From the IMG/VR virus record IMGVR_UViG_3300008259_000009: DNA of 64,000 nt, one strand, 5' to 3'. This stretch comes from a virus. How positions within the stretch are numbered: the stretch's first letter is position 1; the number at the start of each line of letters is the position of its first letter. The position numbers and the translations under genes are program-made. Below the pieces are notes generated by a model. It searched no databases. It was not told the DNA's origin and saw only the letters and a program-made list of their open reading frames with translations. This document shows positions 21,789-34,428 of the stretch, piece after piece.

Positions 21789-22048
21789 GGGGGTGTTTTT
21801 TGGTTTTGACAGGTATCGGCTGAAGAATAAGGGCACGTGGGGACTGAGTTAATCTCCTTAAAAACTGATTCAGAAAAACAACTGGCAATGTGCTAAACAA
21901 AATGGAAGCTATCGGATTAATCCGTACTTCTGTTTTTGGTCAAATAAAAATCAAATATTTTGGGGTATTAGAAAATACCAACCTAAACGTGTAGTCCTTA
22001 TCTGACAGGATGTTATGGACAAGGGTTCGACTCCCTTCACCTCCACCA
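21789..22048 (+). ncRNA. ssrA: tmRNA, compact 260 nt
   Basis: 5' GGGGGTG...TTTTGAC; 3' AAGGG-TTCGACT-CCCTT-CACCTCC-A-CCA; G3-U70 Ala identity; AACT-GGC resume context. Confidence 0.92.
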
Positions 22049-22138: not shown

Positions 22139-22915
22139 ATGGCGGAAGATAGTTTTAGACCATCAAGAGTGATTTTAGCAGAAATTAAAATAAATAATGC
22201 TGAAGTCACCAGATTAAATGCTTTAATTAGAAAATACACAAAACTTAAAGCGGAATTAAGTAAAGAGAGAGAATCATTAAAGGAATTGATTAACCAACTT
22301 GAAAAAATAATTAAAGAGACTGGTGGTACCAGAGAACAAATCCTTTTATTAAGAAATTATAGAAATAGGGAACAAGAATTACCCGAACTTCAAAAAGATA
22401 ATGAGGAAAACTTATCACGAACTCAACAAGAATATGAGGTGGCAATTCGTTTACAACAATCTTTAGATAAAGAGCTACAAGAAACTCTTGCTTACGAAGC
22501 CGAACTTAAGATAAGATTACAAATAACCATTGTTGAACCTAAAAGTGCGACAAATACTTCATTGTTACCTATTAACGGTTTAAATATACCTGCGGGAACT
22601 CCTATTGAAATATTGAGTTATGAAGGTGATAATTATATTAAAGTAGGGTCAATTCCTGAACCTCTTGACAAAATAGAATTTAGAGATATTGATTACTCTA
22701 AAATTTTAATAGGTTCTGGAGGTAAGGTGATTCATGCTGGATTTGGGGAAGGGTTGCCTTCGGAATTTTTCACTTATCACACAATGACGTATAATTATGA
22801 TGTTGCAGTGTCTACTGACATACCATTTATTTTATTTGATGATTCATATTATCATTCAGATGGTTCTGTTTGGGCATTAGTGTCTAATGGGTTGAGACCT
22901 TTTCCAATAAGATAA
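22139..22915 (+). CDS. Hypothetical protein with N-terminal coiled coil
   Basis: 258-aa ORF, + strand TATTTAT at 22095. Confidence 0.7.
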   Translation: MAEDSFRPSRVILAEIKINNAEVTRLNALIRKYTKLKAELSKERESLKELINQLEKIIKETGGTREQILLLRNYRNREQELPELQKDNEENLSRTQQEYEVAIRLQQSLDKELQETLAYEAELKIRLQITIVEPKSATNTSLLPINGLNIPAGTPIEILSYEGDNYIKVGSIPEPLDKIEFRDIDYSKILIGSGGKVIHAGFGEGLPSEFFTYHTMTYNYDVAVSTDIPFILFDDSYYHSDGSVWALVSNGLRPFPIR

Positions 22916-22940
22916 TAAACAAATAAAAAAATAAAAAAAT

Positions 22941-23010
22941 AAAACCCATCCTAACAGGTGGGTTTTTTTATGTGATATAAACAAAAAAAGGGAAAGTTTC
23001 CTTTCCCTTG
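22941..23010. terminator. Two back-to-back terminator hairpins
   Basis: AAAACCCA...TGGGTTTT and AAAGGGAAAG-tttc-CTTTCCCTT. Confidence 0.7.
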
Positions 23011-23018
23011 TAATGTCG

Positions 23019-23091
23019 TAGCAACGCCTCGGAATCGCACCAAGTTTATCTGGCTTATGAGACCAGTGAGATTCTATACCTCCCGCCTGCT
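23019..23091 (-). pseudogene. Degenerate tRNA-Met(CAU)-like element
   Basis: Anticodon arm CTGGT-CTCATAA-GCCAG intact; T-loop TGCGATT; two acceptor-stem mismatches. Confidence 0.6.
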
Positions 23092-23099
23092 ATATGTAA

Positions 23100-23820
23100 A
23101 AAGAACGCTGAGATTACACGTTTTATTGAGAACCTTTAGAGTCATTATTGCTTCTACTCCTATCCACTTCCTTTTGAGAAGTATTTCTCAGTGACGGTTA
23201 TTTAGGTGAACCACTCCTTGAGGTCTAATCTACTCTCCTATTACTCAACTCTCTTTGAGGATGCCTCCCCAACTAGTCCTTGCGGGATTAGAGGTCTTTG
23301 GTAAAAATACACTCAGCCTTGGGAGCTTTGTGTGCCGTGAACAGCTCACGACTAGGTAGTCACCTTTAAACTAGACCTGACGGACACTTTTCCTTACTGA
23401 TTAAATTAGTTTCATAATTTTTTCATAGGTTTTGTGTCGTGGATTGTGAAAGTAGTGGTCCGCCCACGAGCCAACTCATCTTTTGAACGAGCCGATACTC
23501 AACTACTCTCTGAAATGTCCCCATCTCCATATTTTAAGATTACTTCGTGATTAACTCCTTGGTAGAAGTTTATCAAGGTTAGTAACGACACCACTCGTAC
23601 ACTAACATACCTTTCGGTTTTAAGTACCCTCTGATATTGGGAAACGCAATAATAGAATCGGATAATCCTATGTTTTGCAATATCCCTACGAGTTATTCCT
23701 ATTGGTGTTCCCACCTCAATCAGACGACCCACATCGCCCAATCATCTAACCACTTTCCCTACACTGCCATTTACTCGGTGGATAATATCACCGACACTTT
23801 TGTGTTTCCTGAATGGATAT
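23100..23820 (-). ncRNA. Large ornate ncRNA, GOLLD-like (~720 nt)
   Basis: No credible ORF; more GC-rich than flanks; many hairpins; long-range helix 23434-23439/23792-23797; promoter and boxA-like motif upstream; tRNA-like element and terminator downstream. Confidence 0.65.
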
Positions 23821-23864
23821 ACTAATTTTTCAAAGAACGTTTCGGACTTTTCCGATTTGTTTTA

Positions 23865-23895
23865 CAAACTTACGACATTCATTTCTGTTTGTCAA
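23865..23895 (-). promoter_or_regulatory. Bacteroidota sigma-A type promoter
   Basis: TTG-N20-TAAGTTTG. Confidence 0.75.
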
Positions 23896-23915
23896 GTAGT
23901 TTGTGAACTTTTTTT

Positions 23916-24068
23916 TTATTTTTCTGTGTAGACTTGATAAGTTCCGTACTTGTTAGCCTGTGACTGAGCGAATACTACGTTTGGAGTCCAAAGTAGCATC
24001 CCCTTGTCGTTACGGTAACCGTACAATACTTCTTCGTCATTTTCTACGTCAACATTTTTATCTGACAT
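23916..24068 (-). CDS. Small hypothetical protein (50 aa)
   Basis: Manually translated MSDKNVDVENDEEVLYGYRNDKGMLLWTPNVVFAQSQANKYGTYQVYTEK. Confidence 0.6.
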   Translation of the reverse strand: MSDKNVDVENDEEVLYGYRNDKGMLLWTPNVVFAQSQANKYGTYQVYTEK

Positions 24069-24117
24069 CTGAAAAAGATTTAAGGGTTAATAAATAAAGA
24101 ACTGTCTGTTTGTTTTA

Positions 24118-24148
24118 CAAATGTATGAAATAAATATTGGTAGGACAA
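24118..24148 (-). promoter_or_regulatory. Bacteroidota sigma-A type promoter
   Basis: TTG-N20-TACATTTG. Confidence 0.75.
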
Positions 24149-24165
24149 GCGAAAAGACAAAAAAC

Positions 24166-27223: not shown

Positions 27224-28234
27224 TTATTCGTATTTTAATAAAAATTTATTTGATATCACTTTGAATGAGATTTTTCTGTCTAAGGTTCTAATCACAATAC
27301 CTTCTCTATCGTAGTTAGGATTTAACTCTGATTTACTATCTGCAAATTTTAATAACTCATCAATAGTGTCAGGTAGTTTGAAATTAGTGTCTAACACGGG
27401 TACGGTTTCCAAACCTAACATCTCTACAGTATCTTTAAACTCAGTTAACGAAGAATACTCCTGAGTATCAATATTATACAAGTTGAAGCATCTTATGGTT
27501 TGCCCTTTAATTTTATATGGATTCCCTTGCACCGATTCTCCAATAAGTTCTGCCTGAATTGAAATGTTTTTACCCAAAGATTTCATTTTATTCTCCAAGT
27601 TTAATTCACGAGCAACTTTCCAAAATGTATTACCCTCAGTTTCCAACAATTCCAAGTTACGAGAACAAACCCCAAACTCACCATTTCTTAAATAGAATGT
27701 TGCGGAAGACCCATCCAATTTCTCGGTCACATAAAACTTATGGTCAGATGTTCTGTATTCCTCGTATTCGGATGTCAAGTTCTGAACCCTTTCTTCATCT
27801 GTCTTGCGTAAAAAAGACGGGAACAAACCTTTTACCTTGCCAGCCAATTCAGCGGGAACTGGTGGTTCGTATTTAACAATACCCAATACTTCAGTAACAT
27901 CTTGTCCTTCATGAAATGCTTCGCCAAAAGGTAAAATGTGGATTGGTAAAATCAAACCCTGAGACAATTGTCCTCTCAATCTAATTGTCTTTAAACGGAA
28001 TCCTTCTTGGTCTCCCATTTTTTTGTGGGAACTTTTTCTTAAAAACTCAAATTCCTCTCTGATTGGTAAGAAGGAATCCACCTCGCAGTAAACAACTAAA
28101 TCACCAACCTTATGGTTAACATCTTTTGCTACAACAACTTTCCACCCATCAATTGTCGCAACCTCAATTTTGTCGGCACCCTCAATTGGAGATAAATCAC
28201 TAATCTTTCTAATGCTCGCTAATTTCCTTTCCAT
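27224..28234 (-). CDS. RNA ligase, DRB0094/Rnl2-like
   Basis: N-terminal IEGADKIEVATIDGWKVVV; motif I TEKLDGSS; QAELIG; REGIV; FKVISN. Confidence 0.9.
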   Translation of the reverse strand: MERKLASIRKISDLSPIEGADKIEVATIDGWKVVVAKDVNHKVGDLVVYCEVDSFLPIREEFEFLRKSSHKKMGDQEGFRLKTIRLRGQLSQGLILPIHILPFGEAFHEGQDVTEVLGIVKYEPPVPAELAGKVKGLFPSFLRKTDEERVQNLTSEYEEYRTSDHKFYVTEKLDGSSATFYLRNGEFGVCSRNLELLETEGNTFWKVARELNLENKMKSLGKNISIQAELIGESVQGNPYKIKGQTIRCFNLYNIDTQEYSSLTEFKDTVEMLGLETVPVLDTNFKLPDTIDELLKFADSKSELNPNYDREGIVIRTLDRKISFKVISNKFLLKYE

Positions 28235-28237
28235 ATT

Positions 28238-28543
28238 TCATTTTTTTGTGTATTTCTTAATTAAATTAAATATTTCTTTGATGTCTGTAAACTCTGAAAC
28301 TGGTGCATCAGTCCTACCAGGAAGAAACATTACCGTAAACCCATGATTCCCCTGAAAAGTCTCAGTAACTTTTTTACCACAAACCTCATCAAGATAAACC
28401 CAAGGGAAATTACCAATTAATTTAACTTCAATACCAATTTTTTTAAGTCGTTCAACAAATGTGTTCAACTTGTTAGCACTTTTCTTTGCACTTGATTCGG
28501 CACCAACTTCAACTGACCCAAATTTAGTTTGTTTTGTTTCCAT
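28238..28543 (-). CDS. Hypothetical protein
   Basis: Start at METKQ directly after TATATTTG motif. Confidence 0.65.
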   Translation of the reverse strand: METKQTKFGSVEVGAESSAKKSANKLNTFVERLKKIGIEVKLIGNFPWVYLDEVCGKKVTETFQGNHGFTVMFLPGRTDAPVSEFTDIKEIFNLIKKYTKK

Positions 28544-32564: not shown

Positions 32565-32756
32565 AGTTTCTTTCGTCCTCAACCCAGGTCGGGCAAACTT
32601 TCAGTCCATCTCTGTTAAAATGTGTGTTTCCACTGTATCTAATACAACCTACTTTCCCAGTCGTTCTCCCTATACGACAATGTACGTTCCCCTACGGACA
32701 TCACTCCGTTTCTCATTATGTGGGGCACACTAGGGGGTGATGAACCCTACCTCGTG
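32565..32756 (-). ncRNA. Unidentified GC-rich intergenic RNA B
   Basis: GTCGT/ACGAC and GTG-GAAA-CAC hairpins; no ORF. Confidence 0.35.
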
Positions 32757-32846
32757 TAGTCAGGCAAGGACTTGAACCTTGAACGCCGTTTTTAACTCGG
32801 CCTCTCCACTTAAATGGATATCGTCTACCAATTACGCCACCTGACT
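32757..32846 (-). tRNA. Atypical tRNA-Leu(UAA)-like
   Basis: AGTCAGG/CCTGACT acceptor, Leu-type D arm, long variable arm; irregular anticodon stem around TTTAAG. Confidence 0.6.
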
Positions 32847-33313: not shown

Positions 33314-33501
33314 AAAATGAAACTGTCCTTTCATTCGGGTTTTTACTGATGGTTTGTTCCCCATCACCTGTTGTGTGGCCACACAGAGCAGGGTCCTAAA
33401 CAGAGTATCTTGGGTCATTTCACACTTCGGTTGGGTAGCTACTCCCATGAAGCCAAGATTCCTTTCATCCGTGCTAATCGGACTTCTGTCAGTTTCATTT
33501 T
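33314..33501 (-). ncRNA. Unidentified multibranch RNA D (188 nt)
   Basis: 12-bp closing helix AAAATGAAACTG/CAGTTTCATTTT with four internal arms. Confidence 0.65.
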
Positions 33502-33678: not shown

Positions 33679-33703
33679 TGTATTTCAAAGAACTAATGTT
33701 CAG

Positions 33704-34375: not shown

Positions 34376-34397
34376 TTTTACTTTCAAAGAACTTATT

Positions 34398-34428
34398 CAA
34401 AGATATGGGTTTCATTTTAAATTGCCAA
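34398..34428 (-). promoter_or_regulatory. Bacteroidota-type promoter followed by boxA-like motif at 34384-34392
   Basis: TTG-N20-TATCTTTG then GTTCTTTGA. Confidence 0.75.

What the first reader, a model, noticed from the sequence alone, without database searches (positions are those of the whole stretch)
23100..23820. ~720-nt two-domain ornate RNA (GOLLD-like) with its own promoter, boxA-like motif and terminator
Seen on the minus strand: a TTG-N20-TAAGTTTG promoter (23865-23895), GTTCTTTGA (23830-23838), then a non-coding tract full of stems. These include TCGGTG/CACCGA (23775-23794), CCTTG/CAAGG, ACC-GAAA-GGT, CC-GCAA-GG, CGTGA/TCACG, ACTTC/GAAGT and AGTAGT/ACTACT. A long-range GTGTCG/CGACAC helix closes a ~360-nt 5' domain. 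An AU-rich linker (23400-23430) follows, then a second domain starting with the same AAAAGTGTC. Established: GOLLD RNAs are ~800-nt, two-domain, tRNA-associated RNAs of phages and bacteria with unknown function; ROOL is a related large class. The class assignment is inference.
Basis: partly seen in the sequence, partly recalled or inferred. Interest (0 to 1): 0.78.

Follow-up and report, generated by a model that had tools for sequence, protein, structure and literature searches.

The report
GOLLD RNA gene of lake phage
This stretch is a clear member of the known GOLLD family of giant phage RNAs that build RNA-only cages; this copy lacks 173 bases that other assemblies of the same phage carry, and its leader looks like that of a ribosomal RNA operon.

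Summary
The Rfam GOLLD model (RF02032) matches window 23510-23105 (-) end to end at 328 bits against a cut-off of 150. Forty-two IMG/VR relatives share the block 23766-23098. On a 24-sequence alignment, 98.3% of cells pair and 87 of 151 pairs show compensatory changes. Three freshwater metatranscriptomes hold exact contigs of the RNA body.

What is added:
- **Conserved leader.** The promoter (TTGACA ... TAnnTTTG), in many relatives a small hairpin, and an invariant GTTCTTTGA(A) box are conserved across the clade. The box differs at one of 11 positions from the NusB-binding boxA of Bacillus subtilis rrn operons, which also follows a small 5' hairpin.
- **Missing 173 nt.** The window lacks 173 nt between 23764 and 23763. 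This equals about the first 140 nt of the cryo-EM env-38 GOLLD plus 33 nt of leader. Seventeen other contigs with this leader type, three of them of the same phage, carry this piece. The junction was found nowhere else. The tmRNA gene 1.8 kb away has a similar private 152-nt gap. An assembly artefact or a rare defective variant is likely.
- **Degenerate tRNA-Met-like element.** It sits where close relatives have a tRNA-Met, just before the terminator.

Family known; interest modest.

The parts
23865..23895 (-). Promoter: TTGACA (23895-23890), 17-nt spacer, TAAGTTTG (23872-23865). Also readable as a Bacteroidota-type TTG ... TAnnTTTG promoter.
   Evidence: Pattern match. The same TTGACA ... TAnnTTTG arrangement stands at the same place in nearly all of the 20 relatives aligned. 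The generic sigma-70 scan did not list it because the second hexamer matches only 3 of 6.
23842..23855 (-). Small leader hairpin TCGGA-AAAG-TCCGA, at or near the predicted 5' end of the transcript and 2 nt before the box.
   Evidence: Listed as a stem-loop. Present in about 10 of 22 relatives with compensatory variants (TCAGGA/TCCTGA, TTCGG/CCGAA, TTTCG/CGAAA).
23829..23839 (-). boxA-like element CGTTCTTTGAA.
   Evidence: Exact match. GTTCTTTGA is invariant in 22 of 22 relatives, 702-768 nt upstream of the anchor motif, while the flanks vary. GUUCUUUGAAA differs at one of 11 positions from the B. subtilis rrn boxA consensus AUGAUCUUUGAAA shown to bind NusB (PMC13753749).
23764..23828 (-). Leader remainder: conserved TATCCATTCAGGA, then a lineage-specific hairpin (CGGTG ... 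CACCG, 23794-23775), ending at ...AAATGGCAG.
   Evidence: The hairpin is shared only with the L008, L035 and L044-type relatives.
23763..23764 (-). Junction of a 173-nt gap relative to other assemblies of the same phage.
   Evidence: L044, L045 and L046 carry 173 extra nt here, and L047 reads into them before its contig ends. Their flanks are identical or nearly so (100.0% or 99.9% over the upstream 5560 nt for L043, L044 and L046). The junction is absent from viral contigs and metagenome contigs. No contig of four laid runs bridges it.
23511..23763 (-). Retained part of the GOLLD 5' (cap) domain, including the invariant ACC-GAAA-GGT hairpin.
   Evidence: Homologous in all 42 relatives. Helices 2-12 have many compensatory changes.
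23448..23510 (-). Hairpin with an invariant CAAAAG loop and an internal loop holding GGCGGAC (23464-23458). This is the first element of the Rfam model.
   Evidence: Rfam alignment; helices 13 and 14.
23393..23447 (-). AU-rich variable linker.
   Evidence: Unaligned and of variable length in relatives; unpaired in the Rfam consensus.
23105..23392 (-). Universally conserved GOLLD 3' domain. GTCCGTC (23385-23379) pairs with GGCGGAC across the linker.
   Evidence: Rfam match. Helices 15-27. The linker-spanning helix is 100% paired, with 3 of 7 pairs changed on both sides.
23019..23092 (-). Degenerate tRNA-Met-like cloverleaf. Anticodon loop CTCATAA, D loop without GG, T loop TGCGATT.
   Evidence: Cloverleaf minimum-free-energy fold. 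Rfam tRNA scores only 20 bits against a cut-off of 29. ARAGORN is silent. Relatives L008 and L003 have an ARAGORN-called tRNA-Met(CAT) at the same offset. The sequence is identical in L043-L046.
22981..23009 (-). Intrinsic terminator: 9-bp stem, GAAA loop, T run.
   Evidence: Relatives without the tRNA have a terminator 30-70 nt after the GOLLD end.

Best explanation
This is a GOLLD RNA gene of an uncultured freshwater jumbo phage.

**Shown**
- It matches the GOLLD covariance model over the model's full length.
- Its helices are kept by compensatory changes across relatives.
- It is non-coding.
- Contigs identical to it are present in RNA libraries, while its flanks are not.

**Inferred from the family's solved structures (env-38 14-mer, S. 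agalactiae 12-mer)**
- The RNA self-assembles without protein into a closed cage.
- The conserved 3' domain forms the ring, the 5' domain forms the cap, and the variable linker faces inward.

**Inferred from anatomy**
- Host RNA polymerase starts at a conserved promoter.
- It reads a small 5' hairpin and an invariant boxA-like element. These recruit NusB-S10 and the other Nus factors, as on rRNA operons. That would protect this long untranslated transcript from Rho and help it fold during synthesis.
- The 3' end is set by RNase P cleavage at the downstream tRNA-like element, with an intrinsic terminator behind it.

**The window copy**
- It lacks 173 nt, about the first 140 nt of the canonical 5' domain. 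Other assemblies of the same phage have them.
- The phage's normal GOLLD is therefore about 910 nt from the box to the 3' end.
- The short form is most likely an assembly artefact or a rare defective variant.
For: - **Family match.** Rfam GOLLD 328.3 bits, model 1-416, E = 2.6e-93.
- **Relatives.** All 42 IMG/VR relatives align to the conserved block, the full-length ones from 23766/23761 to about 23098.
- **Covariation.** 151 pairs, 98.3% paired, 87 with compensatory changes, against 16-32 in slid controls and 0 of 500 shuffles reaching the observed value.
- **Not coding.** The internal ORF is not conserved.
- **Occurrence.** The stretch is held by 17 DNA or RNA runs with at least half of its sampled words, and by 6 metatranscriptome runs, all aquatic or freshwater.
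- **RNA cover.** RNA contigs cover only the bins from 23132 to 23779, with exact pieces spanning 23169-23763, while a DNA run covers all bins.
- **Phage context.** Major head, portal, terminase, 23 tRNAs and a tmRNA. A contig that carries the same leader type is 291,788 nt long.
- **Leader.** Promoter and box conserved, 22 of 22 for the box. The box resembles the NusB-binding B. subtilis boxA, which also follows a small 5' hairpin (PMC13753749). The two other near-copies of the box in the window lie in the tRNA array, one 4 nt after a TTG-N20-TAnnTTTG promoter.
- **Downstream tRNA.** A tRNA or tRNA-like element sits directly 3' of GOLLD in close and distant relatives.
- **Cage formation and domain roles.** PMC12286853 and PMC12990946.
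- **Gap.**
Against: - Cage assembly, Nus factor binding and RNase P processing were not and could not be tested here.
- The box was not found within 1.5 kb of two distant GOLLD loci, Acinetobacter phage Herod and a 642-kb uncultured phage. It is a clade feature, not a family feature.
- The count of box matches in the window (3) is not above chance (expected 2.2). Conservation and position carry the argument.
- RNA contigs cannot define transcript ends or strand, and RNA libraries can hold DNA.
- The host is unknown. The Bacteroidota reading of the promoter is a hint only, since the nearest terminases are below 30% identical and come from mixed hosts.
- If the 173-nt gap is real, two covariation-supported helices lose their 5' strands and the cap domain may not fold.
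Confidence: 0.9

Rival explanations
1. The 173-nt gap is a technical artefact, such as a misjoin or collapsed scaffold gap. The phage really carries the full-length GOLLD seen in L044-L046.
For: - Contigs with this leader type carry the full module in 17 of the 19 that reach far enough; the exceptions are the window and L043.
- The window junction is absent from IMG/VR and from the 241 million JGI metagenome records, while the full-length left junction occurs in 22 contigs.
- In four laid runs no contig bridges 23764|23763. Contigs matching either side run on into unlike letters, which on the core side read as the full-length sequence.
- The same window has a second private gap of 152 nt inside the tmRNA gene 1.8 kb away.
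- Other assemblies have their own private gaps of 102 nt (L043) and 175 nt (L045, at window 28130-28304) at other sites.
Against: - A de Bruijn assembler cannot invent a junction without reads or a shared word, and no long repeat flanks the gap.
- The tmRNA gap has a 7-nt overlap and the L043 gap a 2-3-nt overlap. These look like slippage deletions.
- The source reads were not examined.
Confidence: 0.55
2. The gap is a real natural deletion. This is a 5'-truncated GOLLD variant that still oligomerises through its intact 3' domain but forms an uncapped or differently sized assembly, or is simply defective.
For: - The 3' domain alone of S. agalactiae GOLLD forms decamers, and natural 5'-domain differences go with 12-mer versus 14-mer cages (PMC12990946).
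- The rest of the RNA is intact.
- Two different gaps fall in the same 5' module in two assemblies, the window and L043.
Against: - The sequence is otherwise identical to the full-length strain, so there is no sign of a lineage living with the deletion.
- The gap removes the 5' strands of two covarying helices whose partners remain. One helix has 9 pairs, the other 5.
- The junction has not been seen in any other sample.
Confidence: 0.35
3. The conserved GTTCTTTGA box is not a Nus-factor site. It is instead part of the GOLLD fold, a processing site, or a phage-specific protein site.
For: - It is invariant, which also fits a structural or protein-contact role.
- RNAalifold on the 5' 640 columns of the full-length alignment pairs its first bases with the invariant CAC..ACAC segment at the 3' edge of the 5' domain, but these pairs show little or no covariation.
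- It is absent near two distant GOLLD loci.
Against: - It differs at one of 11 positions from a boxA shown to bind NusB, and it has the same hairpin-then-box layout.
- The same box recurs in the phage's tRNA array, once 4 nt after a promoter.
- It lies outside the published env-38 construct, which still assembles into a cage.
Confidence: 0.35
4. The RNA belongs to a new class, or to ROOL, rather than to GOLLD.
For: None found.
Against: The GOLLD match covers the whole model at more than twice the gathering score. No ROOL or other large-RNA match appeared in either Rfam scan.
Confidence: 0.01

Closest known systems
GOLLD RNA (Rfam RF02032; env-38 cryo-EM structure 9MEE, Kretsch et al. 2025, PMC12286853)
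   Same: - Full-length match to the family model of the hairpin, linker and 3' domain.
- Two domains with a variable linker.
- An invariant GAAA hairpin in the 5' domain.
- A GC-type loop where relatives switch GC and CG, as described for the symmetric L21a kissing loop.
- Phage location with tRNAs nearby.
- The module missing from the window aligns by eye with the first ~140 nt of the env-38 construct (shared GGCCG..ATGGTCG, AAATAAA, CGAAAG, GGATAAAGTG and GAGGGTAACAC motifs).
   Different: - The window copy lacks that module.
- This clade has a conserved promoter, a hairpin and a boxA-like leader upstream of the published 5' end.
- env-38 lies downstream of a tRNA-Met. Here a degenerate tRNA-Met-like element lies downstream of the RNA.
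Streptococcus agalactiae GOLLD (700 nt, dodecamer 9L0R; 3' domain decamer 9LMF)
   Same: A naturally shorter GOLLD whose reduced 5' domain goes with a different cage stoichiometry. It shows that the 3' domain is enough for oligomerisation (PMC12990946).
   Different: Sag GOLLD lacks specific distal helices (P9, P11a-c, P21b) and is an evolved, stable form. The window gap cuts across helices and is private to one assembly.
rRNA operon leader (small 5' hairpin plus boxA; NusB-S10 antitermination complex)
   Same: The order is promoter, small hairpin, then a box. The box GUUCUUUGAAA compares with B. subtilis GAUCUUUGAAA and E. coli GCUCUUUAACA (PMC13753749). The product is a long, highly structured, untranslated RNA.
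   Different: No binding or antitermination has been shown for this element. No boxC or leader-trailer helix was identified. The host and its own rrn leader are unknown.
ROOL RNA (Rfam RF03087)
   Same: A large ornate phage RNA near tRNAs that forms RNA-only cages.
   Different: Unrelated sequence and fold; no match here.

Membership tests
GOLLD RNA (RF02032) | Covariance-model score at or above Rfam's gathering score over the conserved 3' region | tested here: met
   328.3 bits against 150, model 1-416 of 416, no truncation.
GOLLD RNA (RF02032) | Helices of the conserved region kept by compensatory changes among homologs | tested here: met
   24 sequences, 98.3% of cells paired, 87 of 151 pairs with changes on both sides; slid controls give 16-32.
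GOLLD RNA (RF02032) | Two domains (variable 5', conserved 3') joined by a variable single-stranded linker | tested here: met
   The AU-rich, length-variable stretch at about 23447-23393 lies between conserved blocks.
GOLLD RNA (RF02032) | Complete 5' domain of the lake/marine type (helices P1-P13 as in env-38) | tested here: not met
   The window lacks 173 nt, equivalent to about env-38 nt 1-144 plus 33 nt of leader. Other assemblies of the same phage have it. This lowers the claim 'intact copy', not 'GOLLD'.
GOLLD RNA (RF02032) | Encoded in a phage or prophage, usually beside tRNAs | tested here: met
   Head, portal and terminase genes, 23 tRNAs 9-16 kb away, and a tRNA-like element 13 nt after the RNA.
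GOLLD RNA (RF02032) | Self-assembly into a homo-oligomeric RNA cage | not testable with these tools
   Known for env-38 (14-mer) and Sag (12-mer) from PMC12286853 and PMC12990946; inferred here.
ROOL RNA | Match to the Rfam ROOL model | tested here: not met
   No match at the gathering score (whole window) or in the permissive scan of 22850-24150 (E up to 5).
boxA / Nus-factor antitermination leader | Box sequence close to an experimentally bound boxA, in the 5' leader of an untranslated transcript, after a small hairpin | tested here: met
   GUUCUUUGAAA differs at one of 11 positions from the B. subtilis consensus. It lies 2 nt after the hairpin 23855-23842 and about 20 nt after the predicted start. 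Invariant in 22 of 22 relatives.
boxA / Nus-factor antitermination leader | Binding of NusB-S10 and resistance to termination | not testable with these tools
   Needs biochemistry or a reporter assay.
tRNA (element 23092-23019) | Score above the Rfam tRNA cut-off or a call by ARAGORN; conserved G18 G19 and T54-Psi55-C56 | tested here: not met
   20 bits against 29, and no ARAGORN call. The D loop lacks GG and the T loop reads TGCGATT. It has a cloverleaf shape only.

The most novel reading that the evidence does not exclude
In this freshwater clade the GOLLD gene is built like a miniature rRNA operon: own promoter, 5' hairpin, invariant boxA, giant structured RNA, tRNA-like processing signal, terminator. 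The phage would borrow the host's Nus-factor antitermination and RNA-chaperone complex to make and fold its cage RNA. The same box heads its tRNA array. I found no paper in the searched library that links GOLLD with boxA.
Probability: 0.45. Interest if true: 0.55.

Novelty: new member of a known kind. Interest (0 to 1): 0.3.

Why it matters
GOLLD is one of the few natural RNAs known to form protein-free cages, and its biological role is still unknown.

This locus does not change what GOLLD is. It adds usable facts:
- A well-sampled freshwater clade (over 40 contigs) with strong covariation for the 5' domain.
- Presence of the RNA body in environmental RNA libraries.
- A conserved rRNA-like leader that suggests how such a long untranslated RNA is transcribed and folded.
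- A recurring tRNA or tRNA-like element directly at the 3' end, which suggests how the end is made.

It also carries a practical warning. This assembly has private internal gaps in two structured RNA genes, GOLLD and tmRNA. 'Compact' or 'short' forms read from this window should not be taken at face value.

Tried and rejected
- **Own genome.** A whole-genome search failed because no genome is held for this window.
- **Isolate phages.** Megablast of 20 kb against isolate phages found nothing.
- **Junction in public contigs.** Absent from IMG/VR and from JGI metagenome contigs. This is absence in assemblies, not proof of absence in reads.
- **Laid contigs.** No contig bridges 23764|23763. RNA contigs give no cover below about 23132 or, in two of three runs, above 23779. 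Contigs cannot show ends, strand or level, so I use these only as 'the body is present in RNA libraries'.
- **Host from prophage copies.** The anchor motif hit one bacterial genome contig, a human-gut Lachnospira MAG, which is uninformative for a lake phage.
- **Host from terminase.** Best hits are below 30% identical and spread over a huge uncultured phage and Microcystis, Flavobacterium and Synechococcus phages.
- **Box near distant GOLLD loci.** Not found within 1.5 kb in Acinetobacter phage Herod, the uncultured phage LR756502 or the Lachnospira contig.
- **Literature string searches.** Searching for the box sequence returned only primers. PMC3177189 held no consensus strings.
- **Helix numbering.** I could not map my helices onto the published P1-P27 numbering because figures are not held. 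I therefore cannot say whether the linker-spanning GGCGGAC/GTCCGTC pairing is already drawn in published models.
- **Protein-coding reading.** Rejected.

Full report
**1. The observation**

Read on the minus strand, window 23900-22980 holds, in order:
- a promoter-like TTGACA-N17-TAAGTTTG (23895-23865);
- a small hairpin (23855-23842);
- CGTTCTTTGAA (23839-23829);
- about 735 nt without a conserved reading frame;
- a cloverleaf-shaped element (23092-23019);
- a strong intrinsic terminator (23009-22988).

The region 23815-23425 folds better than all 100 shuffles, with z = -3.2. The longest internal ORF (80 aa) is interrupted or frame-shifted in most relatives.

**2. Identity**

cmscan of the whole window against Rfam 15 gives GOLLD (RF02032) at 23510-23105 (-). 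The score is 328.3 bits against a gathering score of 150, E = 2.6e-93, model positions 1-416 of 416, not truncated (repeated). No ROOL match or other large-RNA match appeared. The Rfam model covers one hairpin at the end of the 5' domain, the variable linker and the conserved 3' domain. The rest of the 5' domain is not modelled.

**3. Relatives and covariation**

A 22-base motif from the 3' domain found 42 IMG/VR contigs. All align to the conserved block, the full-length ones from about 23766 to about 23098, at 68-86% identity. On 24 distinct sequences, RNAalifold predicts 145 pairs, 83 of them with compensatory changes.

I then added the Rfam outer stem and a linker-spanning helix as a pseudoknot, giving 151 pairs. 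Counting these:

| Measure | Result |
|---|---|
| Cells that form a standard pair | 98.3% |
| Pairs with changes on both sides | 87 of 151 |
| Same count in slid controls | 16-32 |
| Shuffles reaching the observed value | 0 of 500 |

- The retained 5' domain (helices 2-12) is as well supported as the 3' domain.
- The 7-bp pairing of GGCGGAC (23464-23458) with GTCCGTC (23385-23379) closes the linker. It is 100% paired, with three covarying positions. Covariation cannot tell whether it forms within one chain or between chains.
- CCTTG/CAAGG is replaced by an overlapping helix that carries the covariation.
- The long-range GTGTCG/CGACAC helix has its 5' strand in a hairpin that most relatives lack.

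**4. The leader**

Aligning the upstream regions shows conserved features:
- Nearly all of the 20 relatives aligned have TTGACA-like and TAnnTTTG elements at the same place.
- GTTCTTTGA is invariant in 22 of 22, at 702-768 nt before the anchor motif, although the sequence around it varies.
- About ten relatives also have the small hairpin just before the box, with compensatory variants.

A 2026 study reports that B. subtilis rrn operons begin with a small hairpin. It is followed at once by a boxA-like sequence (consensus AUGAUCUUUGAAA; E. coli UGCUCUUUAACA) that binds NusB (PMC13753749). The GOLLD box GUUCUUUGAAA differs from the B. subtilis one at a single position.

In the window, the only two other near-matches to the box lie in the tRNA array on the same strand, one of them 4 nt after another TTG-N20-TAnnTTTG promoter. 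The raw count (3 against 2.2 expected) is not significant. Conservation and placement carry the argument. No paper in the searched library holds both 'GOLLD' and 'boxA'. The box lies upstream of the published env-38 construct. It was not found within 1.5 kb of three more distant loci: the GOLLD genes of Acinetobacter phage Herod and of a 642-kb uncultured phage, and a gut-MAG contig that carries the anchor motif.

**5. The missing 173 nt**

In every relative, the conserved sequence continues upstream of the point where homology to the window stops. I looked up the neighbouring 385-aa VanY/M23 protein by identity. This returned independent assemblies of the same phage. Their flanks are identical or nearly so to the window (100.0% or 99.9% over the upstream 5560 nt for L043, L044 and L046; L045 carries its own 175-nt gap inside that stretch).
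- L044, L045 and L046 carry 173 nt between ...AAATGGCAG and TGTAGGG... that the window lacks. L047 reads into them before its contig ends.
- L043 lacks a different 102 nt of the same module.
- A metagenome scan for the full-length left junction found 22 contigs, one of them 291,788 nt long.
- Of the 19 contigs with this leader type that reach far enough, 17 have the full module; the exceptions are the window and L043.
- The window junction was found in no IMG/VR or JGI metagenome contig.
- In four laid runs (one DNA, three RNA), no contig bridges 23764|23763. Loose ends on the core side read as the full-length sequence. Contigs that match the upstream flank exactly run on into unlike letters.

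The missing piece shares its motifs in order (compared by eye) with the first ~140 nt of the env-38 RNA whose cage structure was solved (construct sequence in the supplement of PMC12286853), plus 33 nt of leader. It is not a clean module. It contains the 5' strands of a 9-bp and a 5-bp helix, both with covariation, whose 3' strands remain in the window.

The window has a second private gap of 152 nt, inside the tmRNA gene (window 21926-21932). L045 has a private 175-nt gap elsewhere. I therefore favour a technical origin or a rare defective genome (about 55% against 35%). I cannot settle this without the source reads. Either way, the phage's normal GOLLD measures about 910 nt from the box to the 3' end.

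**6. The 3' end**

The conserved block ends at about 23098, after the last Rfam hairpin and a U-rich tract. Thirteen bases after the Rfam match lies a 74-nt cloverleaf with anticodon loop CTCATAA.
- Close relatives L008 and L003 have an ARAGORN-called tRNA-Met(CAT) of the same sequence family at the same offset. L004, L007 and L015 have a different tRNA-Met there.
- The window's version has lost the D-loop GG and reads TGCGATT in the T loop. It scores 20 bits against a cut-off of 29. It is identical in all assemblies of this phage.
- Distant GOLLD genes in Acinetobacter phage Herod and in LR756502 are also followed within 10 nt by a tRNA.
- This recurring layout suggests that RNase P cleavage at the tRNA or tRNA-like 5' end makes the GOLLD 3' end. 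This is inference.
- Relatives without a tRNA have a terminator 30-70 nt after the RNA.

**7. Expression and habitat**

The 1-kb stretch is held nearly complete in many freshwater and lake metagenomes. Rows that hold the stretch or part of it come from 16 studies in all, and six metatranscriptome runs hold about half of it.

Laid on the window, RNA-library contigs of three studies cover only the bins from 23132 to 23779. Several pieces are identical to the window and together span 23169-23763. A DNA run covers every bin. One RNA run also has a low-depth contig over 23764-24092. This fits a stable, abundant RNA body. Contigs cannot give ends, strand or level.

**8. Context**

The window encodes a major head protein, portal, large terminase, a Clp-type ATPase, an RNA ligase and a GIY-YIG/NUMOD3 endonuclease. 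It also holds 23 tRNAs, a tmRNA and a freshwater-1 RNA. There is no close isolate. The terminase is below 30% identical to anything cultured. The TAnnTTTG motif hints at a Bacteroidota host, but this is weak.

**9. How it most likely works**

From the solved structures (PMC12286853; PMC12990946), GOLLD protomers assemble without protein into closed dihedral cages. The 3' domains form rings, the 5' domains form caps, and the linker points inward. The function is unknown; cargo holding, for example of tRNAs, has been proposed.

The window's 3' domain has every modelled helix, so I expect the same behaviour. My additions, both inferred, are Nus-factor-assisted transcription and folding through the leader, and 3' end formation at the tRNA-like element.

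**10. Verdict**

This is a correct first-stage call on a known family. It is a new locus of a well-sampled lake clade, not a new kind of RNA. Interest is modest. The leader observation is the only part that might be new. The short length is probably not biological.

Noticed in passing
window 21789-22048 (+), junction at 21926-21932: The 260-nt 'compact' tmRNA of this window lacks 152 nt that L043, L044 and L045 (same phage, otherwise identical) carry. In L044 the Rfam tmRNA match is 412 nt long. The compactness is a private gap of this assembly, not a feature of the phage.
   Followed up: yes
window 28130-28304; L045:1193-1195: Assembly L045 lacks 175 nt here that the window, L043 and L044 have. 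This fuses a 117-aa ORF to the RNA ligase gene, giving a 397-aa call. Private gaps of 100-175 nt recur in different assemblies of this phage at different sites.
   Followed up: partly
L043:5560-5632: A second, different gap (102 nt, GATATT|GGATACCG) lies in the same GOLLD 5' module, in another assembly of the same phage.
   Followed up: partly
window 33684-33694 (-) and 34383-34393 (-), promoter-like 34398-34428 (-): AGTTCTTTGAA, one mismatch from the GOLLD leader box, occurs twice inside the tRNA array. One copy lies 4 nt after a TTG-N20-TAnnTTTG promoter and the other between tRNA-Glu and tRNA-Leu. This resembles the leader and spacer boxA of rRNA operons.
   Followed up: partly
Supplementary ROOL alignment of PMC12286853 (file 5): Four human-gut ROOL rows read UGUUCUUUGAU at what appears to be the first alignment block, that is, the 5' end. 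The other cage-forming phage RNA may carry the same box in some members.
   Followed up: no
L071:1308-1761 (Acinetobacter phage Herod) and L072:1537-2025 (LR756502): In both distant phages the GOLLD match ends 10 nt before a tRNA on the same strand. In the Herod record the GOLLD stretch carries no annotated feature, although the neighbouring tRNAs are annotated.
   Followed up: partly
window 33341-33402 (-): An Rfam freshwater-1 RNA match (72.6 bits against a cut-off of 72) lies inside the tRNA array.
   Followed up: no
window 32756-32846 (-): ARAGORN calls a 91-nt tRNA of undetermined type with a two-base 'anticodon' (ta). Similar odd calls occur in the relatives L012, L036 and L042.
   Followed up: no
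L064 (contig Ga0209296_1000009): A contig of 291,788 nt carries the same leader type, so phages of this group are jumbo phages.
   Followed up: no
relatives L001, L018, L032, L020, L037, L027, L017, L036, L006, L021, L024, L041, L038: In these loci a tRNA-Met(CAT) lies about 1.0-1.2 kb upstream of the anchor motif, that is, a few hundred bases before the GOLLD promoter and leader, instead of directly downstream. env-38 was also described as lying downstream of a tRNA-Met. The link between GOLLD and tRNA-Met in particular may be worth a look.
   Followed up: no
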